Assembly: GCF_006345805.1 (NCBI RefSeq)
Contig: NC_043020.1
Coordinates: forward strand, 16,926,001 to 16,990,000
DNA length: 64,000 nucleotides
Direction of reading: 5' to 3'
From: Octopus sinensis
Taxonomy: Eukaryota
This document shows positions 8,295-64,000 of this stretch, piece by piece. Within the stretch, counting starts at the first letter, position 1. Each line of letters begins with the position of its first letter. A program made the translations under genes and the position numbers. The notes under the pieces are model-generated. The model was not told where the DNA came from, ran no database searches, and worked only from the letters and a program-made list of their open reading frames with translations.

Positions 8295-8614
8295 TATATC
8301 ATCATCATCATCATCATCATATATATATATATATCATCATATATACATACATACATCATAATCATCGTTTAACGTCCGCTTTCCATGCTGGCATGGGTTG
8401 GACGGTTTGACTGAGGACTGGTGAGCCAGATGTGGCACTGGCAATGACCACACTCGAATGTTGTTTTTCGTGTGCCACCGGTATGGGAGCCTATCCATGA
8501 CCCTGGCAACGATCATACTCGGATATGCTTTTAATGTTCCACTGGCACAAGTGCCAATCAGGCGGTACTGTTATTGGCCACGTCAGCGATTTTGATTTCA
8601 CACGTCGTCATCAG

Positions 8615-10012
8615 CATCATCGTTTAACGTCTGCTTTCCATGCTAGCATGGGTTGGACGATTTGACTGAGGGCTGGCGAACCAGATGACTGCACCAGGCT
8701 CCAATCTTGATCTGGCAGAGTTTCTACAGCTGGATGCCCTTCCTAATGCCAACCACTCTGAGAGTGTAGTGGGTGCTTTTTCATGCCACCAGCACGGGGG
8801 CCAGTCAGGCGGTACTGGCAACGATCATGCTCGAATGGTGCTCTTAGCACCCTACTAGCACGGGGCACAAGTGCCAGTAAGGCGACGCTGGTAATGATCA
8901 CACTCGAATGGTGCCTTTTATGTGCCACTGGCATGGAAGCCGGCTAGCCGCTCTGTCAACGATCACACTCGTATGGTGCTCTTTGCACCCCACTAGCATG
9001 GATGCCAGTCATCGAATTTGATTTTGATTTCACTTGCCTCAACAGGTCTTCACAAGCAGAGTTTAGTGTCCAAAGAAGGAAAAGATATGCACAAGTGGGC
9101 TGGTTGGCATAGGCCACGAGGTTATGGTCTCATTTGGCTTGCCAGGTCTTCTCAAGCACAGCATATTTCCAAAAGTCTCTCGGTCACTAGTCATTTCCTT
9201 GGTGAGGCCTAAAGTTCGAAGGTTGTGCTTCACCACTTCATCCCAGGTCTTCCTGGGTCTATCTCTTCCATGGGTTCCCTCAACCGCTAGGGTGTGGCAC
9301 TTTTTTCACACAGCTATCCTCATCCATTCTCGCCATATGACCATACCAGTGCAGTCGTCTCTCTTGCACACCACATCTGATGCTTCTTATGTCCAACTTT
9401 TCTCTCAAGGTACTTACAGTCTGTCGAGTATGCACACTGACATTAAACATCCATCAGATCATACTGGCTTCATTCCTTGTGAGCTTACACAAGTCCTCAG
9501 CAGTCACAGCCCATATTTCACTGCCATGTAGCATGGCTGTTCGTACACATGCGTCATACAGTCTACCTTTTACTCTGAGCGAGAGGCTTTTTGTCACCAG
9601 CAGAGTAAGAGCTCTCTGAACTTTGCCCACTTTCAGCGCACCCTCCCCCACTACTGACTTGGTCACCTAGGTAATGGAAGCTATCAACTACTTCTAGTTT
9701 TTCTCCCTGGAATGAGGCGGAAGCTGGTCTCTGCGCATTTTCAGTGTTTATTGCTCCTGAGCATCTGCCACATACAAAAACTATCTTCCCAGTTAGCCTT
9801 CCTTTGATATTACTGCACCTTTTATGTGTTCATAGCTTACACTAGGTTCGTCTTATAGAGTTTCTATCTACGCCTCTACTACAGATTGAGCAGGGCCATC
9901 TACCTGAAGGTGTTTGTGATTTGTCTACCTTCCTACTTATTAGGACTTTGGTTTTAGCTAGGTTGACTCTAAGGCCCTTCGATTCTAATCCTTGTTTCCA
10001 CACTAGTTCTGA
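8615..10012 (-). mobile_element. 5'-truncated RTE-clade LINE (ORF2 C-terminal remnant plus 3' UTR)
   Basis: Contains LESKGLRVNLAKTKV and VKGRLYDACVRTAMLHGSEIWAV, with stops and frameshifts, and ends in the family B tail. Confidence 0.85.
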
Positions 10013-15140: not shown

Positions 15141-16918
15141 ATAGATAATTTCTTATGTAATTTTTTTTGTTGTCATGTTATGTATCAGGGATTCAGGAAA
15201 AGGGATGGCAAACCTTCAGTGGAGGAGAAGACAGTGTTTCTACTAAAGTTATGGTTTTTCCATGCTTACTAGTGGTCCAATTGGCAGAAACTTCTGTACA
15301 TTTTGGAATGCTATTAAAATTCTTCTGCTGAAAATAGCTAAATTGGTTGAAATACACCTCGTGGATAATCACTATGAGGCATGACCTGACAATGGGGAGG
15401 AATACCATCACAAGCATGGTGAATGGGGAAGGTGATGCCAAAAGTTCAAGAACCATAGTTATGTATGTATATACACCATAGTTTTCAGTGTATGAACCAT
15501 GGTTTCTTTCTACAAAATGGGCATAAATGGGTCTTATGCAGTTGTTAATACCAGATGCTGAGGATATTTTCAGGCTGTTTTTATTCTTCATTTGTTTTGT
15601 AACCAGTTGATCAACTGATTCCCCATATTTTCATGTGTATTTATTGTATCTCAATGAGATATTGCATGGATTAAGTTGTGCGTGTATGGTTAGTGTGGTT
15701 GATAGTCTGGAAATTACGGTACACAAATGTATGTCATTTTTTCCATGTTAATTATCCAGCAATTAATAGGGAACTGCAGATCAACAGAAAAACTAAGAGG
15801 ACCAGCATGTAAAATTTTTTTGAAGAATTTGTGCACCACTGGCTTAATTTGACTGAAACGGATAAGCTAGAGAGGTGCACCAGGTTCCAATCTGATTTGG
15901 CATGGTTTCTACAGCTGGATGCCCTTCCCAATGCCAAACGCCCTTCTGAGTTCAAGTTCCACTGAAGTCAACTTTGGCTTTCATGCTTTTCAGGGTCAAT
16001 AAAATAAGTACCAGTTAAGCACCGGGGTCAATGTAATTGACTTACTCCTTCCCCTGAACTTGATGTGGTACTCAGATCTCCTTCATCAAACTCACTGCTT
16101 GGTATAATTCATAACTGTATGTATTTAAGAACTTTGTCAGCCATGTGGTTCTGTGTTCAATCCATTGTACTTTGGGCAAAATCTCATCTATTATTGCTTC
16201 ATCTTGTAAGTAGTGGAATTTGGTTGATTGAAATTGCAGGGAAGTCTATCATCATCATCATCATCATCGTTTAGCGTCCGTTTTCCATGCTGGCATGGGT
16301 TGGACGGTTCTACTGGGGTCTGTGAAGCCAGAAGGCTTCATCAGGCCCAGTCAAATCTGGCAGTGTTTCTACGGCTGGATGCCCTTCCTAACGCCAACCA
16401 CTCCGTGAGTGTAGTGGGTGCTTTTTACGTGCCACCCGCACTGGTGCCAGACAGAGCTGGCAAACGGCCACGAACGGATGGTGCTTTTTATGTGCCACCG
16501 GCACGAGGGCCAGGCGAGGCTGGCAACGGACACGAAACGGGGCGGTGCTGGCAACGGTCGCGAAACGGAAAGTTCTCTTACATGCCACCGGCACTGGTAA
16601 CACATCTGCAATTTCCATTGATCGATTTCCATTGATCGATTTCGATTCTGATCGTCACTTGCCTCAACGGGTCTTCACAAGCAGAGTTTTGACATGCCAC
16701 CGGCACTGGTAGCACATCCGCAATTTCCATTGATCGATTTCGATTCTGATATATTGATCGATTTCGATTCTGATATATTGATCGATTTCGATATATATAT
16801 ATATATATATGTGTATATATATTTTCTATTTTGGATATATTTGGGGTACTTAGGTCTGCTCAGGACTTGGTGTTTGCTTTTTCCGTGGGTATGAGTAAGT
16901 ACTTCACTTATATCTCGT

Positions 16919-16985
16919 GTATTTGCCGCTGAAGAGGGGAAAATTCTTATGAATTAACCCCGAAATTGGTCCAATACGGTAATAC
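16919..16985 (+). ncRNA. Type I hammerhead ribozyme motif
   Basis: Stem I gtatttgccg/cggtaatac; core CTGAAGA at 16929-16935; stem II GGGG/CCCC extended by AATTC/GAATT; GAAA at 16962-16965; stem III ATTG/CAAT; predicted cleavage after ATA at 16976. Confidence 0.7.
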
Positions 16986-17178
16986 CGAATTTTTTAGAAA
17001 TTTCTATCAGTTTGTTTTGAGACGCATAAATTATAATGGTTAATTGACAATTTTTGTCTTTTTTTCAGCATATTTGGCATTAGAATTTTTCTATTGCCCT
17101 TATATTGTAAATTATTTATAAATTTAACCTTTAAAGGTATTTTTTGATATGCTGGCCACTGATGAAATTTTTTTCCCG

Positions 17179-17209
<31 letters not shown>

Positions 17210-17240
17210 CCTACATTAGTTATATGTGCGTATATATATA

Positions 17241-17626
17241 TTACTCTTTTACTTGCCCCAGTCATTTGACTGCGGCCATGCCGGAGCACCGCCCCCAATC
17301 GAGCAACTCGACTCCGGGACTCACTCTTTTGTAAGCCCAGCACTTACTCTATCGGTCGCCTCCGCCGAGCCGCCAAGCAACGGGGACACAAACACACCAG
17401 CACCGGCCGTCAAGCAATGCCAGGGGGACAAACACAGACACACACACACACATACATATACACGACAGGCTTCTTTCAGTTTCCGTCTACCAAATCCACC
17501 CACAAGGCATTGGTCGGCCCGGGGCTATAGCAGAAGACACTTGCCCAAGGTGCCACGCAGTGGGACTGAACCCGGAACCACGTGGCCGGCAAACAAGCCA
17601 CCCACCCACCACACAGCCACTCCTGC

Positions 17627-17630
<4 letters not shown>
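17241..17630 (-). mobile_element. SINE family A (tRNA-type head, CORE-like gcaccttgggcaagtg segment, internal microsatellite), T>C hypermutated copy
   Basis: Aligns full length to the copies at 28135, 39395 and 60874. Confidence 0.9.
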
Positions 17631-17691
<61 letters not shown>

Positions 17692-17941
17692 AGTAAAGGT
17701 AAGATCCAAGGATCAATGTGTAAGCTTTGAACAGCCTATAGAAGGTATAAAAACAACTTTCAGGAACAATCATTATTTATTGACATAGAAGGTTGCAAGT
17801 TTTTCCAATATTGAGGTTCAATACACTGAATAACTTGTTTTATAGCCTACAGCTAGCAGCAGGTGTTGGTGTGCATGCGAATAGAAATCCAAGTTAACAT
17901 GGGATCCCTTCATAATGATGTTTACTTCTTTTGATTAAGGT

Positions 17942-18036
17942 ATCTTTGGCCTGACAAGTAGCTAGCGGATTACCCTTTGCTTGGATAATTACTACTTCCG
18001 GGGTTCTGCTAGCTATGAAACATATGTAGCCTTGAT
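17942..18036 (+). ncRNA. Degenerate minimal hammerhead motif (G8>A)
   Basis: Reads ggc-CTGACAA, then a long stem II (gtagctagcgga/tctgctagctat), then GAAA-CATAT-GTA-gcc. Stem III is the palindrome ACATATGT. Confidence 0.45.
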
Positions 18037-18063
18037 TTTATCTACATCATTCCCTAACTTTGG

Positions 18064-18067
<4 letters not shown>

Positions 18068-18124
<57 letters not shown>

Positions 18125-20140
18125 AAGGCTAGTGATGGGAGCGATGACCTCCCTTGCAAATGTTATATGGATACAAACTGTGTTCGATAGCCAGCTGGAA
18201 AAAATGTTTCCCTGGGGTTATAACAACAGTAATATCATCCTGTATAGGACTGCCAAATTCTGTTGGCATATTTTTGTATTCTTATTCATGTTATCATTAT
18301 TGTTTTTACGTATTTTTGTATTCTTATTCATGTTATCATTATTGTTTTTACGTATTTTTGTATTCTTATTCGTGTAACATTGTCCGTTTTTCCGTCCTTG
18401 TTTTGTATACATTCGAGGCTTTCTTCCAAGGAATCTAATGTGCTTGGCTTAGATTTTCCTTTGGGGCTGGCCAGATCGGAGCAATCTCAAGATTAATCAG
18501 CTGAAATTGTGAGGATGATCCGGTTCTTGACTGAAGATTGAAGGCTTTGAATGTCCCGTTCGTGTTTTTTGTATCATCTTCTAAATGTTTTGCGTCCAGT
18601 TTGTATTTTTCTACATATATATATATAGACACATAAGTGTGTGACAGTGTGTGTACACTTATACAGCAGGTTTCACAATGTTTTTGTCCACCAAATCTCC
18701 TTATAAGGTATTGGTTGGCCCAGAGCTATTGTAGAAGATACTTGCCCAAGGTGTTGCTCAGTGGGATTGAACCTAAAAACACATGGTTGAGAAGTAAACT
18801 TTATAACCACACAGTCATGCTTTTGTTCTTTAATATCTCGCACTAAGGCCTTGACATTGGATAAATAATTTTGCAAATGCAATGCAAAGTTGCAGATACC
18901 AAAATATTGTTGCTCATGAAAACACAGACTGAACGTTTGTGATTTATTAATGGTTTTTGTAAATGCCAGAATTAGAGGAAATTACTTTGCATAGTGAATG
19001 GTAATATTGAGTCAGAAGACTCTAAACAAATTCAAAGAAAATATACACATGTATATAAAAAAAAAAAAAAAAAAAAACTAAACCATAGTGCACCTTTAAT
19101 GTTCCTCATAATAATTTTTTTATAATCAATGAAATTCCTCTGAATGAAACAAGTCTGTAACTGAAATCACCAGAACTTGTTCCATTCATTAAACCATTTT
19201 TTGAAAAAAATTCAAGCTTCTCAGTAATATAATAAAAGCTTCAGTTATGATTCTATGCCGAAGGCAGTTAGAAATGTGTTTCAAGATATTACTCTCCTCT
19301 CCAGTATTCCTCTCCTATCGCAGGAGTGGCTGTGTGGTAAGTAGCTCGCTAACCAACCACATGGTTCCGGGCTCAGTCCCACCGCGTGGCACCCTGGGCA
19401 AGTGTCCTCCGCTATAGCCCCGGGCCGACCAATGCCCCGTGAGTGGATCTGGCAGATGGAAACTGAAAGAAGCCCGTCGTATATATGTATATATATATAT
19501 GTGTATGTGTGTGTGTTTGTCCCCCCAGCATCGCCCGACAACCGATGCTGGCGCGTTTACGTCCCCGTCACTTAGCGGTTCGGCAAAAGAGACCGATAGA
19601 ATAAGTACTGGGCTTACAAAGAACAAGTCCCGGGGCCGATTCGCTCGACCAAAGGCGGTGCTCCAACATGGCCGCAGCCAAATGACTGAAACAAGTAAAA
19701 GAGAGTATCACCCTCTCTTTCTCCATTACGCTGCTTGTACTGATTCTATTCAATCTAATTACCAACAACCATCAGGTAGCTCCCCCTCTCTCTCTCCCCA
19801 CCTCTCACTAAACTAAGTTTAACCCACCCACTTTATATAACGGATAAAGATCCTTACCCAAGTCACATAGACTCAAAAGGGCCAGTTTCATGGTTTCTGT
19901 GGTATATATATTCCCCACCTGGACAGGATGCCAGTCCATCGAAGGATTATTCTTTTATTTGTTTCAGTTACTTGACTGTGGCCATGCCGGAGCACCGCCC
20001 TCAGTTGAGCAAATCAACCCCAAGACCCATTCCTTGTAAGCCCAGTACTTAAAGACGGGGACGTAAACACACCAGCATCGGCCGCCAAGCGATGCCGGGG
20101 GAACAAACACAAACACACAAACATATACATACACACACAC

Positions 20141-20193
<53 letters not shown>

Positions 20194-22163
20194 AAGGCTA
20201 GTGATGGGAGCGATGACCTCCCTTGCAAATGTTATATGGATACAAACTGTGTTTCGATAGCCAGCTGGAAAAAATGTTTCCCTGGGGTTATAACAACAGT
20301 AATATCATCCTGTATAGGACTGCCAAATTCTGTTGGCATATTTTTGTATTCTTATTCATGTTATCATTATTGTTTTTACGTATTTTTGTATTCTTATTCG
20401 TGTAACATTGTCCGTTTTTCCGTCCTTGTTTTGTATACATTCGAGGCTTTCTTCCAAGGAATCTAATGCGCTTGGCTTAGATTTTCCTTTGGGGCTGGCC
20501 AGATCGGAGCAATCTCAAGATTAATCAGCTGAAATTGTGAGGATGATCCGGTTCTTGACTGAAGATTGAAGGCTTTGAATGTCCCGTTCGTGTTTTTTGT
20601 ATCATCTTCTAAATGTTTTGCGTCCCAGTTTGTATTTTTCTACATATATATATATAGACACATAAGTGTGTGACAGTGTGTGTACACTTATACAGCAGGT
20701 TTCACAATGTTTTTGTCCACCAAATCTCCTTATAAGGTATTGGTTGGCCCAGAGCTATTGTAGAAGATACTTGCCCAAGGTGTTGCTCAGTGGGATTGAA
20801 CCTAAAAACACATGGTTGAGAAGTAAACTTTATAACCACACAGTCATGCTTTTGTTCTTTAATATCTCGCACTAAGGCCTTGACATTGGATAAATAATTT
20901 TGCAAATGCAATGCAAAGTTGCAGATACCAAAATATTGTTGCTCATGAAAACACAGACTGAACGTTTGTGATTTATTAATGGTTTTTGTAAATGCCAGAA
21001 TTAGAGGAAATTACTTTGCATAGTGAATGGTAATATTGAGTCAGAAGACTCTAAACAAATTCAAAGAAAATATACACATGTATATAAAAAAAAAAAAAAA
21101 AACTAAACCATAGTGCACCTTTAATGTTCCTCATAATAATTTTTTTATAATCAATGAAATTCCTCTGAATGAAACAAGTCTGTAACTGAAATCACCAGAA
21201 CTTGTTCCATTCATTAAACCATTTTTTGAAAAAAATTCAAGCTTCTCAGTAATATAATAAAAGCTTTAGTTATGATTCTATGCCGAAGGCAGTTAGAAAT
21301 GTGTTTCAAGATATTACTCTCCTCTCCAGTATTCCTCTCCTATCGCAGGAGTGGCTGTGTGGTAAGTAGCTCGCTAACCAACCACATGGTTCCGGGCTCA
21401 GTCCCACCGCGTGGCACCCTGGGCAAGTGTCCTCCGCTATAGCCCCGGGCCGACCAATGCCCCGTGAGTGGATCTGGCAGATGGAAACTGAAAGAAGCCC
21501 GTCGTATATATGTATATATATATGTGTATGTGTGTGTGTTTGTCCCCCCAGCATCGCCCGACAACCGATGCTGGCGCGTTTACGTCCCCGTCACTTAGCG
21601 GTTCGGCAAAAGAGACCGATAGAATAAGTACTGGGCTTACAAAGAACAAGTCCCGGGGCCGATTCGCTCGACCAAAGGCGGTGCTCCAACATGGCCGCAG
21701 CCAAATGACTGAAACAAGTAAAAGAGAGTATCACCCTCTCTTTCTCCATTACGCTGCTTGTACTGATTCTATTCAATCTAATTACCAACAACCATCAGGT
21801 AGCTCCCCCTCTCTCTCTCCCCACCTCTCACTAAACTAAGTTTAACCCACCCACTTTATATAACGGATAAAGATCCTTACCCAAGTCACATAGACTCAAA
21901 AGGGCCAGTTTCATGGTTTCTGTGGTATATATATTCCCCACCTGGACAGGATGCCAGTCCATCGAAGGATTATTCTTTTATTTGTTTCAGTTACTTGACT
22001 GTGGCCATGCCGGAGCACCGCCCTCAGTTGAGCAAATCAACCCCAAGACCCATTCCTTGTAAGCCCAGTACTTAAAGACGGGGACGTAAACACACCAGCA
22101 TCGGCCGCCAAGCGATGCCGGGGGAACAAACACAAACACACAAACATATACATACACACACAC

Positions 22164-22217
<54 letters not shown>

Positions 22218-22221
22218 TCAT

Positions 22222-22250
<29 letters not shown>
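18068..22250. repeat. Tandem duplication, ~2.03-2.07 kb unit (approx 18068-20160 and 20160-22250)
   Basis: Identical ORFs recur at offsets of 2023-2029 nt (18637/20666, 19568/21591). The junctions lie in (TA)n tracts. Confidence 0.95.
19320..19706 (+). mobile_element. SINE family A, T>C hypermutated copy (duplicate at 21346-21729)
   Basis: Full-length match to the family, in the opposite orientation to 17241 and 21978. Confidence 0.9.
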
Positions 22251-22252
<2 letters not shown>

Positions 22253-22415
22253 GAACAGGCTTCTTTCTGCTTCCGTCCACCAAATCCACTCACAAGGCCC
22301 TGGTCGGCCTGAGACTATAGCAGAAGACACCTGCCCAAGGTGCCACGCAGTGGGACCGAACCCGGAACCACGTGGTTGGCAAGAAAACTACTTACCACAC
22401 AGCCACTCCTGTGCC
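21978..22415 (-). mobile_element. SINE family A copy (its 3' half duplicated at 19955-20150)
   Basis: Matches the family, with an internal deletion and T>C changes. Confidence 0.85.
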
Positions 22416-24360
22416 TATTACTCATTTTTGCTAGCTAAGTGGGCTGAAGCAACATAAAACGAAGTGTTTTGTTGAAAAACACAAATGTGTTGCCTGATCC
22501 AGGAATCAAAACCACAATCTTATAATCCTGAGTCCAACACCCTAAAATATTCCAGCACTTTCCACTTTCTTTCCAAGCTTAGCTTTGATGATCACTTCTA
22601 CTTTCACCCACTAACGACCCCTTATTAGTTGACTAACATTTTGAGATTACTCTGCCAACAGAAAGACATAGTCCACACCCTTAACTGTTTGGCGTTTAAA
22701 CTGGCCGTATGTAGCCCTAATATTCTACCCGTTTTATTTTCAGACTGGCCTCTCAAACCTATCTCACAATGTTATTCTGAAAATAAACAATAACATTACT
22801 GGAATCCCCAAGTCACAAGATAAAGCAGGATTAATTCAGAAGAATATGAATAAATAAGCATTACATTTGACAGATTAATTTGAATGTTAACCCTTTTGTT
22901 ACCAACCCGGCTGAAACCGGCTTTGGCTCTGTAGTACAAATGTTTTGTTTTCATAAGTTTTGAATTAAAATCTTCCACCAAACTTAGTCATAATTTATGA
23001 TCCTCACACTAGCTTAATGGTAACGAAGTTATGTTACTAAAAATCTTTGTTATATTTAAAGTAATTAAAAGAAACACAGAGCATCTCAAAATAAATACAG
23101 TAATGAAAGGGTTAAAGGATTAACAATTCTCCTTTGAAACCGTTTAACTCTTTGCACATCTTGAACACCATCACGCTAGGCAATCTACAAATAGGCATTG
23201 GTCTATCCATTACACTGTACCGCCTACCCCCACTCACTACATTAAGAATCCTATTGACCACCCTTATGTCTCAAACAGGTTTTCTAGTTAACTCTCTCTA
23301 CCCCTCTCTCTCCCCTTCATTTTTTGTTATTCACTCATTCTCATTTAATTGTATATATTTTAATTGTTTGTTTATTCATATGTTTCGTCTCATTTGATAC
23401 CCTGACCCCAATGTTTGTTTTGTCCTCTCTTTTTCTCAACCTTATGGTGAATAAAGAAATACTCTCTCTCTCTCTCTCTCACTGCCCCCATTTCCAATTC
23501 TTGTAAATAGTTAAACTCATAAACTTGTAACCACACTTAGAAGAAACGACCCTTGGTTAAAAATTATATGTCGTAATAAACTGATTTTTTTATAAGATAT
23601 AACAAAATAAATATTTAACTCTACAATTTGTATTGAGATCTCTATCAGATAATGATTCAACTGGCGTTAACGCATCTCTAAACACGTTAACCACCTATGC
23701 ATAAAACACATAGAATAAGAAATAGAAAGTCCTTGGAACAGTATTATATATTTTTGAAAGAAATAGAAACGGCTTTCCTGTTAATTTTTCTACTTAAAAA
23801 AATTAGATGTTTATAAAATCATTAGGTCATATATACCAATTTCTCATTGAAGACATAAGTCTGCAATGAGAAAATGGTTACACTTATAAATGAATGTTCA
23901 CCACTTTCAACTGAATTACCAACTTACTGAATGTAAGTGGCTGAGTATTCCATAGACATCGTCATTATCATTTTAATTTCCATTTGTCCATGCTTACATG
24001 AGCTGGATGGAGTTTATTGAGGAAGATTTTCTATGGCTATTCCTGTCCCCAACTGACATCTGCTTCCAAGCAAGGTGACATGGTTAGTCATATTTTTCAT
24101 AGAATATTGGAGTAGATTACACTGCTTGTATGACAGTGATACTCATTTACAACTATCATATGACGGCAAAACAAGGCGACATAAACATACAAACACTCGC
24201 ACATGCATATGCACATTTTTATATACATAAGAACTCCAAAGGAAATAACATTAAAGTAACAGGTTTTTTTTTTTTCTGAGTGAGTAGAATTAGTTTCAGT
24301 TAGGATTGAACCCATCGTGATTTACAACTGCTCTTCACTCTAACCCTACTTCTCTTGCAG

Positions 24361-30837: not shown

Positions 30838-31527
30838 GTAAGTAAGAAATCATTTTCTTTCTCACTTCCAATTATCGTTTGGGACAGTATTACTTCTAAA
30901 ATCTTTAACAGAACTATTTTTAACAGATTAACAAGGTGCAGGTGTGGCTGTGTGGTAAGAAGCTTGCTTCCCAACCACATGGTTCTTGGTTCAGTCCCAC
31001 TGCATTGGCACCTTGGGCTGGAGTCTTCTACTATAGACTCGGGTCAACCAAATCTTTGTGTATAGAAACTGAAAGCCCATCATCATCATCATCATCATTT
31101 AGCGTCCGCTTTCCATGCTGGCATGGGTTGGCCGGTTCAACTGGGGTCTGAGAAGCCAGAAGGCTGCACCAGGCCCAGTCTGATCTGGCAATGTTTCTAC
31201 GGCTGGATGCCCTTCCTAACGCCAACCACTCCATGAGTGTAGTGGGTGCTTTTTATGTGCCACCGGCACAGGTGCCGGACGAGGCTGAAAACGGCCACGA
31301 TCGGATGGTGCTTTTTACGTGCCACTGGCACAGGTGCCAGACAAGGCTGGCAACGGCCACGATCGGATGGTGCTTTTTACGTTCCACCGGCATCGTGTGT
31401 GTTAATAGATAAGCATTATATTTGCCAGAGTAATCTGAATGCTGAAGTGTTAAACAAAATTAAATGTTTGTTGGTTTATGTTCTTGCTCCACTCATCGTT
31501 ACCACTTTTTTCTTTTTCTTTTTTAAG

Positions 31528-31709
31528 TGTGACATTGATGGTTGTGGTAGAAAGTTTACAACAATCTACAACTTAAATTCTCACAAGAAACTCCATGAAC
31601 GTCCATGTAATGAAGTTTGCCCCAAACCCAACTGTAACCAGAGGTATCCAACAAAACGGCAACTTGATTTGCATTTAAAGAATCATGCTGATGTGGAGAA
31701 AACTTATAA
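31528..31709 (+). CDS. ZXDC: ZXDC-like exon 5, fingers 3-4
   Basis: Encodes CDIDGCGRKFTTIYNLNSHKKLH and CPKPNC...HLKNH. Phase-2 donor AA|gtaagt. Confidence 0.93.
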
Positions 31710-32184
31710 GTAAGTCCACTATCTCTTTCCCTCCCCCTACCCCATTCAGGGTCCAGTTAGCTTTAAGCACCTTGTTTCCTTACTCAGCCATGTTTTTTTA
31801 CCTGTAGATCTTGATTACCAATTGTTTAAGATGGGTATCGGCCAAACCAACCTCACTGATCCAAAGGAGTATTTCTCTTTCTCCTCTACTTACAAAAGAT
31901 AAAAATCAAAGCAAAGTGCTAGGTACAGGATATAAACTGGTTACAAATACAATTCTGGTATTGATTTGGTTAGCTTATTGATTAGTGGGGTGTTTTTATA
32001 TGTCTCAGTTTTTCTGAAGCCTCTGTTAATAAGAGTTAACTAACTATTTATGGCAGAATTCTGGTTTAAGCATCCCTTACAACTCCTCATAACTTTTCTA
32101 TATATTTTTGGACTTTTCAGAAAATTTTTGTGAATCTATAATAAATCTCTGAACGAACACCTTTTCATCGAAAACCAGTGATTG

Positions 32185-32233
32185 TTGTACACTGATGACA
32201 GGTCAAAACCTAGAAACTGCAGTCCGTGCGTAT
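32185..32233 (+). ncRNA. Minimal hammerhead-like motif in a repeat relic (partial second copy at ~35216-35250)
   Basis: Reads CTGATGA-c-aggt-caaa-acct-a-GAAA-CTGCA-GTC-cgtgcg. The second copy reads cacacg-CCGATGA-c-gggt-caat-accc-a-GAAACT, with a compensatory change in stem II. Confidence 0.45.
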
Positions 32234-32943
32234 CACTTAGGTTGACGAGGAAAGGGTGACCTCCCTTACAAATACCATAAGGGCACAGAAAGTGTGCCTA
32301 AAGCCAGCTGGGGACGATGTTCTCTTGGGGCTACAAGCTACAGTAACACCCACCCTTAGTGATTAGCCATATTGAGATGGCAAGTATACCTCACTTTGTG
32401 AATCTGTTTTCTACATACAGAAATTCATACAATTAGGCAAAAAAAACTTTTTTGTGTGTGATTTATGGGTGATTTAGCTGTTATTTTTTACCGTATCCCA
32501 TGAACACAGTGATGATGCACCCAAGAGTGGTCCATAGTTGGAATTTGGGCAAAAAATTTGGACTGTATTTCAAACTCTGATTAAAAAAAAAATCAGAAAA
32601 ACATGTGAAGGTGCATAGCATAGTGGTTAGAGTGTTGGGCTTGCAATCATAAAGTGTCTGGATCATGCATCCCTATCCTTAAACTGGGCACATCATTTCT
32701 TGTTGCTCTAGTCAGCTCAGCTGAAGATGAGTACCAGCTGACTGTTGGTGCAACAGTGCTGCCCTCTCTCCAGTTGCCATGTCCTCAATGTGCTGCAGGG
32801 TCAATAATTAGGCAAGTCTTTGTCTCCTCACAACTACATAGGTGCCAAAAACAATTAGTGAAAGTGGGCTGCAGTCTAATGCATAAAATTTGCTTTAATT
32901 ATCTTTTTAATTATCATACTAGTTTGACATCAGTGTTTTATTT

Positions 32944-33193
32944 CAGTGGTTTTCAACCATTTTTTGCCTAATGGTCCCCTTTGATTCCTATTTTACTCTA
33001 CTGGGCTTCCATAGCTTTTCAATGTATATATTAAAAAAATCCTACAGTATTTTTATAATTAAATATTATTAGGAATTGTTGTTAAAATATCTTGTGTATT
33101 GTAGAATATAAGCAATTTATTGTACCTAAATTTTTACAACAAAATCTTATATGGACCACCAAGAACCATATAGGTCCCAGTTGAGAACCACTG
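32944..33193. mobile_element. hAT-type MITE (interrupted relative at ~40960-41730)
   Basis: TIRs CAGTGGTTTTCAAC / GTTGAGAACCACTG. The TSD is degenerate. Confidence 0.75.
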
Positions 33194-33536
33194 ATTTAAA
33201 TGTTTCAGATCACTGTTAATCTTTATCAAGTATTTCTGTTGACATTCTCAAGAGTAAGGGTCATCTTCCAGGATGCTAAATATCTTTTATGACCTCACAC
33301 ATAGCTTAAAAATGACTAAATCTAATCTGGCTCACACCATAACAGACCAAAGTAGGTTCTTAACTCTTACCTCAATTTTCTAGTTTTTGCACTGATTCCT
33401 TCAGCATCAAAATATTTAAATTTATTTGTACTTAAAACTTGCATTGATAAAAACTAAATTAATTTTTCCTTTAATTCTCCCTTTAATGCTAATTGCCAAA
33501 GAAATAAAATTTTTTGATCAACTTTCTTCTATTCAG

Positions 33537-33732
33537 ATGTCCTGTTGATGGCTGTAACAAAGTTTTCCTTTCTCCTAACTGCATGGGCTCTCATGCCCGT
33601 GTTCATCAACAGGACCGAGATGACCTGGTCTGCAAGTATGATGGCTGTGGTAAAGTTTTCAATAAAGTCTGTCGTCTTAAACAACACATGCGCTGTCACA
33701 CTGGCGAGAAACCATATCAGTGTCGTGTTGAT
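33537..33732 (+). CDS. ZXDC: ZXDC-like exon 6, fingers 5-6 and start of 7
   Basis: Acceptor attcag, phase 2 in. Encodes CPVDGC...HARVH and CKYDGC...HMRCHTGEKPY. Donor gtaagt. Confidence 0.93.
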
Positions 33733-33874
33733 GTAAGTATTTTTAACCAGTACAATTTGTGTCAGTTATAAAGTATCAAGCTACCAACCAATAGTCAAAT
33801 CCTTAAAATCTTTAAAAATGTTTTAGCCCGAAGGCTGCGGCCATGCTGGGGCACCACCGCTTTTTACTTTAATT

Positions 33875-52963: not shown

Positions 52964-53184
52964 GCAAAAAACAAAAGCAACAAAGCAAAACAAACAAAAT
53001 AAAAATTGAATGGAATATCCCGGTGCCTGGGAGGGTGGGGATTGCTTGTAAGGTTTTACAATATTACACAAAAACACACCAAACTTACAGTGAATAGTGC
53101 ACTTTTTTTTTTTGTTTTTCTTTTTTCTCCCCAGTCTTCTGAATTCATTTCATGAAAGTAATTAATTACAGTTTCCTGATATTA

Positions 53185-54650
<1,466 letters not shown>

Positions 54651-54677
54651 ATAATACTTTATTTGTGTAGTAAGGCT

Positions 54678-58768: not shown

Positions 58769-59020
58769 TTAGTTATCTTTTCGTTACAGACTTTGTTTTT
58801 GTAATTAATTATAGTAAGTATATGATAGAATTGATTAGGTACTTTTATCGAGTTCGTAAAGATGTTTTAAACTGTTAAAACTCAGTTCTGCCGGAATTTT
58901 ATTTCTTGGGGTGGTTTTTTCAGGGTGATTTCTTGATAGTTTGTTCAGAGTGATTTCCCTTGAATCTATTCAACTTCCGGCGGTAAAACTAAAATTTCCC
59001 ACATGTGAAAGTCAAAAACA

Positions 59021-59549
59021 ATGTCAATAATGAACTCCTTCTTTCTTCCTCGCTTATTAAGCCCAAAACTCGGCACTTTGATTCGTTTTAATCCCACCGT
59101 CTCACTTCGCCCTATTTTAACACAATCTTTACGCCCTCATGCATGTATTTTCGTGCAACCCCTTTCGTGTTTGACGCCAAAACGTTCGTCATCTCAACAA
59201 GGTTTGTTTTCCCGGGGACACCAACAGACAAGGTGGAAACCGGCACCACCTTACAGAAGAAAGAGTTCTCAGGAAAAGATGGATCCAAGGATCATTTACA
59301 TGGTTTACGCTTCCATAACCATTGGTGCTTTACTTCTCGGCACTATTCTGTTTTCTCGTCTGAAACTTATTTACAAAAAATATATTCATGATATTCACAC
59401 TTATTACGATGCACCTTTCGGTCGACGACAGAAACTGATACAATACAAAGGGGTTGTCCTACCCGCAATGTTAGAAAACGATTTACCTAAGATTCGAGAC
59501 TTTGACGTTAGACCAGACGATGTGTGGGTGGTGTCTTGGCCACGGTCAG
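59021..59549 (+). CDS. Sulfotransferase (SULT4A1-like), exon 1; alternative start at ATG 59279
   Basis: ORF ends ...FDVRPDDVWVVSWPRSG, the start of the 5'-PSB loop. Phase-1 donor CAG|gtaagt at 59549. The choice of start codon is uncertain. Confidence 0.8.
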
Positions 59550-62394
59550 GTAAGTCGGTTCCAGTCAGGTAATTAACGTAAGTTTTCGTGGTGTAGTTTG
59601 CCCACACTATCGATTTCTAGAAAGATGACTTCGGCAATCTTCCGTATTATGCACATATAATGGTGGATAAGAAAGTTGGGGAAAAAAACCGCCTTCAGAA
59701 ATATCAGTTTCAAATTTTGGGGGAGGGGTAAGTCGATTATATCGACCCCAGTGGTTAAACATTGTGGTTGCTCACACACATACACGCTGATACACTGTAT
59801 ATATTGTTGTTCAGTACCTCTCATCAGATATCTATATAATCTTTTTTGGTGAACCATCGGTATATGTACCGGTGTAAGTACCGGATACATCATCATCATC
59901 ATCGTTTAACGTCCGCTTTCCATGCTAGCATGGGTTGGACGGTTCAACTGGGGTCTGGCAAGCCCGAAGACTACACCAGGCCAGTCAGATCTGGCAGTGT
60001 TTCTACAGCTGGATGTCCTTCCTAACGCCAACCACTCCGAGAGTGTAGTGGGTGATTTTATGTGCCACCGACACAGGTGCCAGACGAGGCTGGCAGACGG
60101 CCACGCTCGGATATGGTGTTTTCGGTGTTTTTCTTATGTGCCACCGACACAGGTGCCAGACGAGGCTGAAGAAAGTGTTTTTTTTATATATATGGGGGAG
60201 AAAGGGTTTCTGTAATCTTCAGAAATGTAAACAAAGTCACGTGTGTACCTATACCGAAGCATCGCCTCTTTTTTTTTTAACAGCTCGCTAATAAGAACAA
60301 CTTACTCGTGAAATAGTATGAATTCAGCTTGTTAAAGCTGTTGTGGAAATAACAATAGATTACCTGAAGTGTAATAGAGAGGATTTTTCTGGAGTTGATA
60401 TCCACAGAACACTTCAAGCAGAATTAAATCCATTGATGCCATGCAAGAAAAGTGCCTGTATCAGCACCACGTAAAAAAAAACAACAATGTTGGCTTCACA
60501 TATAAAGCATCTGTGCCGGCACCACATGAAGGTAAGCAGTCTACTCTGTAAAGTGGTTGGTGTTAAGAAGGGCATCTAACCGTTGAAACCATGCCAAAAC
60601 AAACAACTGGGACCTGGTACCAGTGGCACGTAAAAAGCACCCACTACACTCCCGGAGTAGTTGGCATTAGAAAAGACATCCAGCTGTAGAAACCTTGCCA
60701 AATCAGATTGGAGCCTGGTGCAGCCTTCTGGCTTGCCAGTCCTCAGTCAAACCATCCAACCCATGCCAGACGTGATGGTACTATCTAATATTCTCATTAA
60801 AATAGAATACCAATTAAATACTGATTGCAGGCCTTGTATGTAAATAGTGAGCTAGCAGAATCATTAAAGTGATACTCTTTTACTTGTTTCAGTCATTTGA
60901 CTGCAGCCATGCTGGAGCACCGCCTTTAATCGAGCAACTCGACCCCAGGACTTATTCTTTTGTAAGCCCAGTACTTATTCTATCGGTCTCTTTTGCCGAA
61001 CCGCTAAGAAACAGGGACATAAACACACCAGCATCGGTTGTCAAGCAATGCTAGGGAGACAATCACAAACACACACACGCATATATATATATACATATAT
61101 ACGATGGGCTTCTTTCAGTTTCTGTCTACCAAGGCTTTGGTCGGCCTGAGGCTATAGCAGAAGACACTTGCCCAAGGTGCCACACAGTGGGAATGAACCC
61201 GGAACCATGTGGTTGGTAAACAAGCTACTTACCACACAGCCACTCCTCCTCCTGATGGTCGTATTTCTTCCAAATCTTAACTCTATGAGTTCAAATCCCA
61301 TTGTAGTTGACTTAACCTGTCATCCTTTCAGGGTCAATAAACTAAAGCATCAGTTTTGTGTTAGTATCTTGTCCCTTCACCTCAGAATTGCTGTCCTTGT
61401 GCCAAAATCAGAAACATTATCATCATTAAGATAATTATAGCAGAAACATTATAGCATTTGAAAAATGTGTTGCATTTCTTGCAGCTTGTTACATTCTGGG
61501 TTCATATTCTGCTATTGCCTTTCATGCTTCGGGGTCGATGAAATAAGTACCAGTGGAAAACTGAGGTCAATGTAATCAACAAGCACCCTCCCTCAAAATT
61601 TCAGAATTACTATTATTAAGGTAGTGAGCTGAAAGAATCATTAGCATGCCAGGCAAAATGCTTAGTGGCATTTCATCAATTTTTTTACCTCCTTAATTAT
61701 TGACCTTTCAACAAGGTCATCTTTACTTTTCATTCTGTCTTGGTCAATAAAATAAATACTAGTTGAGTACTGAGGTCAATGTAATTGACTACCCTACACC
61801 TTAACAAAATTCCATACCTTATACCTCCACTGAGGTCGACTTTGTCTTTCATCCTTTTAGGGTTGACGTAATCAACTTATACCCTTCCCCCAAATTTCAG
61901 GCCTTGAACCTATAATAGAAAGAATTATTATTATTGTGTAAGGCAGCAAGCTGGCAGAATCATTAGCACACCAGGTGAAGTGCTTAGTGGCATTTCATCC
62001 GTCGCTATGTTCTGAGTTCAAATTCCACTGAGGTTGACTTTGCCTTTAATCCTTTCAGGGTTGATAAAATAAGCACCAATCAAGTACTGGGGTCGAGGTA
62101 ATTGACTAACCCCTCCCACAAATTTCGGGCTTTGTGCCAATAGTAAGAAGGATTATAATAATAATAATAATAATTATTATTATTATTATTAAGGCTGCGA
62201 GCTGGCAGAATCATTAGCATGCCGGGTAAAATACTTAGTGGAAATTTGTGTCTTTACGGTCTGAGTTCGAATTCTGCCAAGGTCATTTTCGCCTTACTTC
62301 CTTTCAGGATCAACAAGATATTGAGCGCTGGGGTTGATGTTATCAACTTATGCCCCCCCCTAACTTACTGGCCTTGTGCTAAAATTTGAAACCA

Positions 62395-62426
<32 letters not shown>

Positions 62427-62454
62427 TATGTGTGTAATGGTTTGTCTTTTCCAG

Positions 62455-62666
62455 GAACTACGTGGGTTCAAGAAATTGTTTACCTCATCCATTCAGATCT
62501 TGACATTTCACAAGAAGAAGAGAAAAACATTGAACAACGATTCCATTTTCTTGAAAATATTTATCCTGGACTACCTGCCATAGCTGCTAAGGAATCACCT
62601 CGACTGATCAAAAGCCATTTGCCCTTTCAACTCCTTCCAGAACAGCTTTCAACAGTCAAACCAAAA
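62455..62666 (+). CDS. Sulfotransferase (SULT4A1-like), exon 2; gene continues beyond window
   Basis: Acceptor ttttccag. Encodes GTTWVQEIVYLI...SPRLIKSHLPFQLLP with the catalytic His motif KSHLP. Donor gtaaat. Confidence 0.92.
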
Positions 62667-63409
62667 GTAAATGTCCTTTTTCTGTTTTGTTATTATTATA
62701 TCTAAGGCGGCGAGCTGGCATGCCGGGCGAAATGTTACATTCTGAGTTCAAATTCCGCCGAGGTCAACTTTGCCTTTCATCCTCTCGGAGTCGATAAATT
62801 AAGTACCAGTTACGCACTGGGGTCAATGTAATCAACTTAATCCTTTTGTCTGTCCTTGTTTGCCCCCTCTATGTTTAGCCCCTTGTGGCCAATAAAGAAA
62901 TAGGAATTGTTAGCACGCCAGGCAAAATGCTAAGCAGCATTTTGTCTATCTCTATGTTCTGAGTTCAAACTCTGCCGAAGTCGACTTGAGTTTATATTGA
63001 GTACTATTATCATTTTTATTAGAGGTGCAGGTATGGCTCTGTGGTATGAAGTTTGCTTCCCAATCACATGGTTCCAGGTTCAGTCCTACTGCATGGCACC
63101 TTGGGCAAATCTCTTCTAATATAGCTTCTGGCCAACCAAAACCTTGTGAGTGGATTTGGTAGACAGAAACCAAAAGAAGCCCATTGTATATATATGTGTC
63201 TGTGTTTGTCCCCCACCAACCAGTGTTGGTTTGTTTATGTCCCCATAACTTAGTGGTTAAGCAAAAGATACCAATTGAATAAGTACCAAGCTTGAAAAAA
63301 AAAAGAAAAATAAGTACTTTGGTTGATTAGTTGCCTTTCACCCTTTTAGGGTCAATGAAATAAGTACCAGTCATGCTCAAGGGCCAATAAGTACCAGTCA
63401 TGCTCAACT

Positions 63410-64000
63410 AGCCTTCTAACCCAAATTTCCTTGTCATTGCTTCTGTGAGGCCCAACATTCAAAGGTCGTGCTTCAACACCACATCCCATGTCTTTCTGGG
63501 TCTCCCTCTTCCACAGGTTCCTTTCACTGTTAGGGAGTGACACTTCTTCACACAGCTCTCCTCATCCATATGCAGCACATAACCATACTAGCGCAGTCGT
63601 CTCTCTTGCACACCTCATCCAATGCTTCTTATATCTAACATTTCTCTGAGGGCGCTTACACTCTGTTGTGTGTGCACACTGACATTACACATCCAGTGGA
63701 TCATACTAGTTTCATTTCTTTCAAGCCTTCATATTTCCTCAACAGTCATGGCCCATGTTTCACTACCGTGTAGCATGGCAGTTTGCACACATGCATCATA
63801 CAGTCTACCTTTCACTCTGAGCAAGAGGCCCTTTGTCACCAGCAGAGGTAGGAGCTTTCTGAACTTTGCCCAGGCTATTCTTATTCTAGTGGCAACACTC
63901 TCAGAGCATCCACCCCCACTACAGACCTGGTCACCTAGGTAGCGGAAGCTATCAACCACTTCTAGTTTCTTCCCCTGGCATGTGATGGAATCTGTTTTCT
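63410..64000 (-). mobile_element. RTE LINE ORF2 fragment, same family as 8615-10012
   Basis: Encodes VDSFRYLGDQV...RIAWAKFRKLLPLL...VKGRLYDACVQTAMLHGSETW. Confidence 0.85.

What the first reader, a model, noticed from the sequence alone, without database searches (positions are those of the whole stretch)
17241..22415. Cluster of SINE copies with one-directional T>C hypermutation, resembling ADAR editing written into DNA
Seen: compared with family A copies elsewhere (28135, 39395, 60874), the copy at 17241 has about 25-30 T>C changes and the copy at 19320 about 20, with very few other substitutions (e.g. gcctttaat>gcccccaat, ccatgtggttggtaa>ccacgtggccggcaa, gcattgcttgac>gcatcgcccgac). The copies at 19955/21978 show the same bias. 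It is T>C on the + strand in both SINE orientations, so it is A>G on the minus strand and cannot come from editing of each SINE's own RNA or of the sense ZXDC pre-mRNA. The affected copies are neighbouring inverted partners, and the changes are identical in both halves of the 2 kb duplication. Established: clustered A>G in inverted repeats is the ADAR signature, and coleoid cephalopods edit heavily. Possible explanations (inference): an edited antisense RNA copied back into the locus; deamination of the template DNA strand in RNA:DNA hybrids; or an assembly artefact from polishing with edited RNA reads or resolving Y codes to C.
Basis: partly seen in the sequence, partly recalled or inferred. 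Interest (0 to 1): 0.8.

Follow-up and report, generated by a model that had tools for sequence, protein, structure and literature searches.

The report
ADAR-edited intron RNA retrotransposed into genome
In this (likely octopus) genome, a 5.5-kb piece of an ECM29 gene intron sits as a second copy on another chromosome with 81 A-to-G changes almost all inside its inverted repeats, likely because a LINE reverse transcriptase copied an ADAR-edited RNA into germline DNA, which would make RNA edits heritable.

Summary
The bias is real, and its source was found. Window 16248-23827 is a copy of G000:C19:29019977-29025435, which lies in a 23-kb intron of ECM29 (minus strand) and has T at every changed site. 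Of 108 differences, 81 are T>C, i.e. A>G on the ECM29 sense RNA. 79 of 312 editable sites inside three inverted SINEs are changed, against 2 of 1460 outside. 5'-G is depleted and 3'-G enriched, as for ADAR. The copy ends exactly at the (GAT)n tail of a 3'-UTR fragment of a very young LINE, and a 4-bp target duplication flanks it. Contigs of DNA run X1 match edited stretches with no mismatch at single-locus depth. Three other runs seem to hold the empty site. Best reading: LINE-mediated 5' transduction of an ADAR-hyperedited pre-mRNA, recent and probably polymorphic. It is an ectopic insertion, not local write-back, R-loop deamination or a polishing artefact. The 2-kb tandem duplication is probably an assembly artefact. 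Other edited solo SINEs exist, two pairs sharing their edits. My searches found no published example.

The parts
16248..23827 (-). Whole inserted segment: copy of G000:C19:29019977-29025435 (5459 bp, ECM29 intron); the RNA sense is the minus strand, its 3' end at 16248 and its 5'-truncated end at 23827
16249..16252 (+). Left copy of the putative 4-bp target-site duplication TCAT; it overlaps the (CAT)n tail (microhomology)
23827..23830 (+). Right copy of the putative target-site duplication TCAT; donor homology stops at 23827
16101..16252 (+). Old, decayed SINE 5' half at the target site, which runs up to the junction
   Evidence: local alignment ends at the TCAT
16248..16268 (-). (GAT)7 3' tail of the LINE fragment; inferred priming point of reverse transcription
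16269..16760 (-). 5'-truncated 3'-UTR fragment of a very young RT-encoding LINE (RTE-like by recalled motifs); no T>C change in it
17241..17628 (-). SINE copy S1 (tRNA-like head at the 17628 end): 33 T>C of 95 T versus donor
18654..18817 (-). Old partial SINE (73% to S2), not edited
19319..19703 (+). SINE copy S2, inverted partner of S1 (92.5% over 387 bp) and of S3 (74% over 432 bp): 22 T>C of 100 T
19947..20133 (-). Part of SINE S3 up to its central microsatellite: 14 T>C
18091..22215 (+). 2-kb tandem duplication (about 18091-20159 and 20160-22215) with breakpoints in (AT)n tracts; absent from the donor; probably an assembly artefact
21344..21726 (+). Second copy of S2 in the duplicated half, same 22 T>C
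21970..22414 (-). Complete SINE S3: 24 T>C of 117 T
31243..33768 (+). C2H2 zinc-finger exons of the + strand gene in whose long intron the insert apparently lies (gene name not tested)

Best explanation
The segment is a second, A-to-G-changed copy of part of an ECM29 intron, likely made when the reverse transcriptase of a young LINE captured an ADAR-edited ECM29 pre-mRNA by a LINE 3' end lying in that intron and inserted 5.5 kb of it on another chromosome (5' transduction). Steps: (1) Shown: the donor lies in a GT-AG intron of ECM29 on the C19 minus strand and holds three SINEs, S2 inverted to S1 and S3. (2) Predicted: these fold into long duplexes in the RNA. (3) Inferred from spectrum and context: ADAR deaminated about 25% of their adenosines in one RNA molecule. 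(4) Shown: the copy's RNA 3' end coincides with the (GAT)n tail of a LINE 3'-UTR fragment whose family has many near-identical copies and open RT frames. (5) Inferred: target-primed reverse transcription began by annealing that tail to an ATCAT microhomology at the target, read inosine as G and stopped after 5.46 kb, leaving a 4-bp duplication. (6) Inferred: this happened in the germline or early embryo, recently; near-identical animals seem to lack it.
For: Unedited parent locus with the same unique flanks on C19. ECM29_N exons 42-84 and 79-125 bracket it on the minus strand, with GT and AG ends, so the changes are A>G on the sense RNA. 81 of 108 substitutions; 79/312 in SINEs versus 2/1460 outside; 5'-G 6/49 versus 73/263 (p=0.02); 3'-G 28/71 versus 51/241 (p=0.003). 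Predicted duplexes S1/S2 365 bp and S3/S2 330 bp; 31 of 33 S1 edits and 20 of 22 S2 edits lie in paired positions. 40 of 40 scored LINE 3'-UTR matches are about 100% identical over 432 bp; siblings end in (GAT)n and four carry an open 446-aa frame with RVT_1, E=1.7e-26. TCAT on both sides. X1 contigs match 17264-17357, 17328-17408 and 19958-20080 (9, 11 and 9 edited sites) with 0 mismatches at depth 58, 45 and 38; flank 48-57; parts shared with the donor 84-105. In X2, X4 and X5 the flank contig runs 215, 165 and 321 letters past 16240 without lying on the LINE, and donor parts are at flank depth.
Against: Editing of this intron in RNA was not observed; no RNA run was laid. The 5' neighbour table overall is only p=0.06. 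Most unedited A are paired too (57 of 63 in S1), so pairing alone discriminates little within the SINEs. The TSD is only 4 bp and overlaps the tail, so it could be chance. The LINE fragment itself has no edits although inverted LINE 3' ends lie 8-11 kb away in the intron. X1 may be the sample behind the assembly, its kind is a guess ('DNA?'), and the letters of the junction and empty-site contigs were not shown: both readings rest on contig lengths. How the RNA came to be primed at an internal tail is inferred from recalled work on other LINEs.
Confidence: 0.9

Rival explanations
1. A DNA-level duplication from C19 to C24 came first, and an edited cDNA of the ECM29 intron later overwrote the SINEs of the new copy by gene conversion.
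For: Would also give ADAR-type changes on the ECM29 sense strand.
Against: Needs two rare events. Does not explain why the segment ends exactly at a young LINE's tail with a short duplication. No unedited second copy was found (3 of 3 matches are the two window halves and C19).
Confidence: 0.05
2. ADAR deaminated the template DNA strand in RNA:DNA hybrids of the + strand zinc-finger gene after the segment arrived.
For: The minus strand is the template of the host gene here, so the direction fits formally.
Against: Changes are confined to inverted SINE pairs of the insert (79/312 versus 2/1460). Other SINEs in the same gene (27110, 28136, 39396, 41212) show no bias. An RNA whose sense strand fits exists at the donor.
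Confidence: 0.02
3. Assembly artefact: an edited RNA read or transcript was built into the scaffold, or polishing or ambiguity codes wrote C.
For: The assembly has errors nearby: many indels in the C19 copy, and a tandem duplication that read depth does not support.
Against: Run X1, 2.7 Gb of contigs, holds the edited strings without mismatch at single-locus depth and shows doubled depth in donor-shared parts. No N gaps flank the segment. The direction does not follow the contig strand: L005 shows A>G on contig +.
Confidence: 0.02
4. The C alleles define an ordinary dispersed SINE subfamily.
For: Two solo copies elsewhere (L005, L007) share 29 of 30 A>G with each other and 15-16 with S1 (expected 10.4; p=0.01-0.03).
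Against: Each window SINE differs from its own parent at the same locus on C19 only by these changes. No other copy approaches S1 or S2 (best others 91% and 94% are the donors). The partial overlap with L005/L007 is expected from shared site preference.
Confidence: 0.01

Closest known systems
5' transduction by non-LTR retrotransposons (human SVA, e.g. SVA_F1; PMC3287187, passages read)
   Same: Host sequence upstream of a retroelement 3' end is carried along in a Pol II transcript and inserted by a LINE protein in trans, 5'-truncated, with a target duplication.
   Different: Here the mobile end is a promoterless 0.5-kb LINE 3'-UTR fragment with a (GAT)n tail, not poly(A). The cargo is 5 kb of unspliced intron, and it carries ADAR hyper-editing.
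APOBEC DNA editing of retroelements (PMC2873906, PMC4866542; passages read)
   Same: Clustered one-type changes fixed in a genomic retrocopy by a deaminase acting during retrotransposition.
   Different: Those are G>A from cytidine deamination of cDNA, in vertebrate LTR elements, and were at noise level in 19 invertebrates. Here the change is A>G, made on RNA, limited to inverted repeats, in a host intron.
ADAR hyper-editing of inverted repeats in coleoid introns and UTRs (PMC9068888; passages read)
   Same: Same substrate class: ubiquitous editing falls mainly in introns and 3' UTRs and overlaps repeats.
   Different: Reported in RNA only; here it is present in genomic DNA.
A>G hypermutated avian retroviral proviruses, and retroprocessing of edited RNA in plant mitochondria and trypanosomes (recalled; not retrieved here)
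   Same: Edited RNA is reverse transcribed into DNA.
   Different: Viral genomes in infected cells, or organellar C-to-U and U-insertion editing; not a nuclear host pre-mRNA moved by a LINE in an animal germline.
RTE-2_OV, a full-length expressed RTE LINE of Octopus vulgaris (PMC9115989; passages read)
   Same: An active LINE with a 3' UTR of about 600 nt and a zinc finger; the family here has a 3' UTR of similar length.
   Different: Identity not shown: its sequence was not found in 8 supplementary files searched, 4 others were not searched; the finger here scores as PHD.

Membership tests
ADAR A-to-I hyper-editing signature | Dense changes of one type, A>G on the transcribed strand | tested here: met
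   81 of 108; ECM29 on the minus strand
ADAR A-to-I hyper-editing signature | Confined to double-stranded (inverted repeat) regions | tested here: met
   79/312 versus 2/1460; duplexes predicted
ADAR A-to-I hyper-editing signature | 5'-G depletion and 3'-G enrichment (preference recalled) | tested here: met
   p=0.02 and p=0.003; whole 5' table p=0.06
ADAR A-to-I hyper-editing signature | The same sites are edited in RNA of the donor gene | not tested
   no run on record as RNA held the stretch; only DNA or unlabelled runs were laid
LINE-mediated retrocopy / 5' transduction | An identifiable source locus elsewhere, transcribed in the matching direction | tested here: met
LINE-mediated retrocopy / 5' transduction | 3' end at a retroelement tail, 5' end truncated within upstream host sequence | tested here: met
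   (GAT)7 at 16248-16268; end at 23827 inside the intron
LINE-mediated retrocopy / 5' transduction | Target-site duplication | tested here: inconclusive
   TCAT on both sides, only 4 bp and overlapping the tail; empty-site letters not seen
LINE-mediated retrocopy / 5' transduction | Empty allele in other individuals | tested here: met
LINE-mediated retrocopy / 5' transduction | A recently active RT-encoding partner with the same 3' end | tested here: met
Classical processed pseudogene | Spliced exons and a poly(A) tail | tested here: not met
   wholly intronic, colinear with the donor, (GAT)n tail
RTE clade (for the LINE) | RT phylogeny places it in RTE; single EN-RT ORF | not tested
   only RVT_1 plus a PHD-like finger shown; the RTE label is recalled from motifs
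APOBEC DNA editing | G>A clusters on the element's sense strand | tested here: not met
   3 G>A and 7 C>T of 108

The most novel reading that the evidence does not exclude
In octopus, ADAR editing plus an active LINE form a recurring RNA-to-germline mutation route. Edited pre-mRNA and SINE RNA are repeatedly written into DNA, edited SINE copies found new lineages (L005/L007 share 29 of 30 edits, L145/L147 share 6 of 6), and the genome holds many single-molecule fossils of germline editing, possibly including edited exons.
Probability: 0.45. Interest if true: 0.9.

Novelty: new variant of a known kind. Interest (0 to 1): 0.8.

Why it matters
It is a traceable case of RNA edits becoming heritable DNA, with donor, editing substrate, reverse transcriptase family, junctions and empty alleles all in hand. 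Such a route has been suggested but called unproven (PMC5974252, passage). The insert records the phased editing state of one nascent RNA molecule in a germline or early embryonic cell, so ADAR and LINE activity can be studied together in that tissue, in animals whose editing is mostly studied in neurons. It makes the question testable genome-wide by a simple scan. It also warns that edited retrocopies can mimic editing in RNA-seq and SNPs in DNA-seq of the donor gene. Limit: it is an ectopic intronic insertion with no known function, not recoding of the parent gene.

Tried and rejected
Local write-back of an antisense RNA: rejected once the unedited parent was found on C19. Contig-strand artefact: rejected, L005 has the opposite contig direction. 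Donor loci for the solo edited SINEs L005 and L007: none; the flanks searched match only themselves and repeats. More antisense-edited copies by DNA similarity to S2: among 47 repeat copies in 27 loci none stood out. Antisense pattern search: 9 matches, 2 from the window, one palindromic pair of interest (L157/L158), the other 5 weak. No RNA holder listed; this is no evidence on expression. tRNA scan of the window: 0. Pfam gave nothing for 10 of 15 fragments, including the window's LINE remnants. Bin-level depths are swamped by repeats and were not used. One X1 contig end with G at 15798 could suggest heterozygosity in the flank; I set it aside because the junction contig's own depth (47.7) covers sequence common to both alleles. 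Literature searches for a prior case found none; the library lacks most subscription papers, and the avian retrovirus paper was not held. Earlier scan findings: none.
Full report
Setting. The window is G000:C24:16926001-16990000 in a 2.72-Gb assembly. C2H2 zinc-finger exons lie on the + strand at about 31-34 kb, and the finding lies apparently in a long intron upstream of them. The name ZXDC was not tested.

Against column-majority letters from 45 near-full-length copies (70 copies aligned), the 17241 SINE has 31 T>C of 91 T with 3 other changes. The copies at 19321 and 21346 have 22 changes in the same + strand direction, and other window copies have none of this bias. The family's true sense is the reverse of the 17241 copy: a tRNA-like head and an (AAAGAGT)n tail are visible (box motifs recalled).

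A parent locus exists. The best other hit to the 17241 copy (C19, 91%) shares its unique flanks. Window 16248-23827 aligns colinearly to C19:29019977-29025435, 5459 bp, with no N in either region; the window adds a 2-kb tandem duplication. Of 108 non-redundant substitutions, 81 are T>C. 79 of 312 T inside the three SINEs are changed versus 2 of 1460 outside (p=7e-61); S1 33/95, S2 22/100, S3 24/117. Only 19 non-T>C differences lie away from gaps, and some are probably consensus errors, so the copy is young.

The donor is an ECM29 intron read on the minus strand. Fragments nearby match ARM_ECM29. ECM29_N positions 42-84 map to C19:29033011-139 and 79-125 to 29009661-801, both minus, with GT and AG at the intron ends. 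The segment lies wholly in this 23-kb intron, so T>C on + is A>G on the sense pre-mRNA.

The signature is ADAR's. On the RNA strand, A with a 5' G is changed in 6 of 49 cases versus 73 of 263 (p=0.02; whole table p=0.06), and A with a 3' G in 28 of 71 versus 51 of 241 (p=0.003). The expected preference is recalled. S2 is inverted to S1 (92.5%) and to S3 (74%). Predicted duplexes are 365 and 330 bp; 31 of 33 S1 edits and 20 of 22 S2 edits are paired, though most unedited A are paired too. A short old SINE (73%) and the LINE fragment are unedited.

The 3' end is a LINE tail. The left end is (CAT)7, i.e. (GAT)7 on the RNA strand, followed by about 490 bp of a repeat. All 40 scored matches to 432 bp of it are about 100% identical. 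In the 25 loci read, siblings end in (GAT)n, are variably 5'-truncated, and four (L127, L137, L139, L142) carry an open 446-aa frame with RVT_1 at E=1.7e-26 and a PHD-like finger. So the donor intron holds a promoterless 3'-UTR fragment of a recently active LINE in sense orientation, and the copy stops exactly at its tail. The target is an old SINE half that aligns up to TCAT at 16249-16252, and TCAT recurs at 23827-23830 where donor homology ends: a putative 4-bp duplication overlapping the tail. Long duplications were not obvious by eye in the sibling insertions either. An expressed full-length RTE LINE is reported in Octopus vulgaris (PMC9115989, passages). Identity with this family was not shown; 8 supplementary files were searched and 4 were not.

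It is in DNA, and other animals seem to lack it. I laid 4 of 24 listed runs on 15700-20130. X1 contigs match 17264-17357, 17328-17408 and 19958-20080 with no mismatch (9, 11 and 9 edited sites) at depths 58, 45 and 38. Flank contigs have 48-57, and unique parts shared with the donor have 84-105, about twice that. The X1 flank contig has 28 letters beyond 16240, exactly to the end of the (CAT)n tract. In X2, X4 and X5 the flank contig runs 215, 165 and 321 letters beyond 16240 without lying on the LINE, and donor parts are at flank depth (38 vs 40, 47 vs 40, 5 vs 7). X2 and X5 match the window without mismatch over 312 bp, X4 differs by about 2%. I read this as an insertion present in X1 and absent from two near-identical animals and one more distant one. 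Caveats: X1 may be the assembly's own sample, run kinds are guessed, contig depth is a rough measure, and the junction letters were not displayed.

The tandem duplication. All 36 T>C in it are shared by both halves, which differ by 2 substitutions and a few indels. The string 19958-20080 occurs twice in the window, yet its X1 contig has single depth (38), and shared parts are at twice, not three times, flank depth. I put about 65% on an assembly artefact at (AT)n tracts; a real later duplication or an RT template jump remain possible.

Mechanism. Shown: donor, strand, spectrum, position of the ends, young RT family, presence in DNA. Inferred: ADAR edited the folded intron in one RNA molecule; the LINE protein recognised the embedded 3' UTR in trans, primed at the (GAT)n tail using the ATCAT microhomology (internal priming at such tails is recalled from eel and fish LINE work), copied 5.46 kb reading inosine as G, and truncated. 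Confidence 0.9. The rivals (duplication then cDNA conversion 0.05, R-loop deamination 0.02, artefact 0.02, subfamily 0.01) are weighed in their sections.

It is not alone. Among 155 SINE copies, fetched partly with edited queries and so biased, 8 were flagged: 4 in the window, plus L005, L007, L017 and L083. L005 (C6) and L007 (C4) each have 30 A>G of 89 in SINE sense, share 29, have 5'-G in 1 of 20 cases, and have unshared flanks, so one edited source gave at least two insertions. A pattern needing three A>G found 8 places in the genome, 4 of them new. Beyond the required sites these carry 3, 4, 5 and 10 more (p=0.19, 0.048, 0.043, 0.003), all 22 with a 5' A or U versus 116 of 146 in background (p=0.015). 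L145 and L147 (=L083) share 6 of 6. This evidence for recurrence is strong for L005/L007 and modest for the rest.

Comparison with what is known. It works like a 5' transduction (SVA; PMC3287187, passages) and is not a classical processed pseudogene. Deaminase marks fixed in retroelements are known for APOBEC G>A in vertebrates and were at noise level in invertebrates (PMC2873906, PMC4866542; passages). Editing of intronic repeats is known in coleoid RNA (PMC9068888; passages). Writing of edits into DNA has been suggested but called unproven (PMC5974252; passage). ADAR-type hypermutation of avian proviruses and organellar retroprocessing are recalled, not retrieved. Nine searches (listings and abstract starts only, apart from the papers named) found no report of an ADAR-hyperedited host intron retrotransposed into an animal genome; the library is incomplete.

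Verdict. Real, mechanistically well resolved, a new variant of a known kind. Interest 0.8.

Noticed in passing
L005:1515-1888 (C6:3748114) and L007:1504-1885 (C4:28436342): Two solo full-length SINEs with 30 A>G each in SINE sense, 29 shared, and a shared tail-flank motif (ATATATAATAATAATAA); L007 may be a daughter of L005, i.e. an edited copy acting as a source element.
   Followed up: partly
L145:1222-1611 (C10) and L147/L083 (C14): A second pair of dispersed SINEs sharing 6 clustered A>G changes in the 3' part.
   Followed up: partly
L017:1503-1892, L146:1428-1818, L148:1428-1821, L150:1235-1610: Solo SINEs with smaller A>G clusters (7-13) and 5' A/U context; candidates for lightly edited retrocopies.
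   Followed up: partly
L157:1100-2150 (C29:12779368-12779794 region): Near-perfect palindrome of about 1 kb whose two arms carry the same 8-9 T>C of 26 in a SINE fragment; a fold-back of an edited copy, or a long-read artefact.
   Followed up: no
window 22216-22228: (CAT)4 inside the (AT)n tract of SINE S3, absent from the C19 donor; it resembles a bare LINE tail.
   Followed up: no
L119, L120, L138: Three LINE copies share 1.5 kb upstream and the same downstream flank (C9842 twice in opposite orientation, and C2): duplicated contig or segmental copy.
   Followed up: no
window 8605-9732 and 63430-64000: Older remnants of the same LINE type, with ORF end and 3' UTR.
   Followed up: partly
window 59009-62705: Exons that look like a cytosolic sulfotransferase on the + strand (motifs recalled; the first fragment had no Pfam hit).
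   Followed up: no
window 53179-54670: 1.5-kb (AT/GT)-rich microsatellite array.
   Followed up: no
window -8149..-6742 relative to the window start (L045): Another near-identical 0.7-kb tandem duplication (99.7%), consistent with assembly-made tandem copies on this contig.
   Followed up: no
L150:1981-2911: Tandem array of SINE 5' halves separated by (AT)n, suggesting slippage at the SINE's central microsatellite.
   Followed up: no
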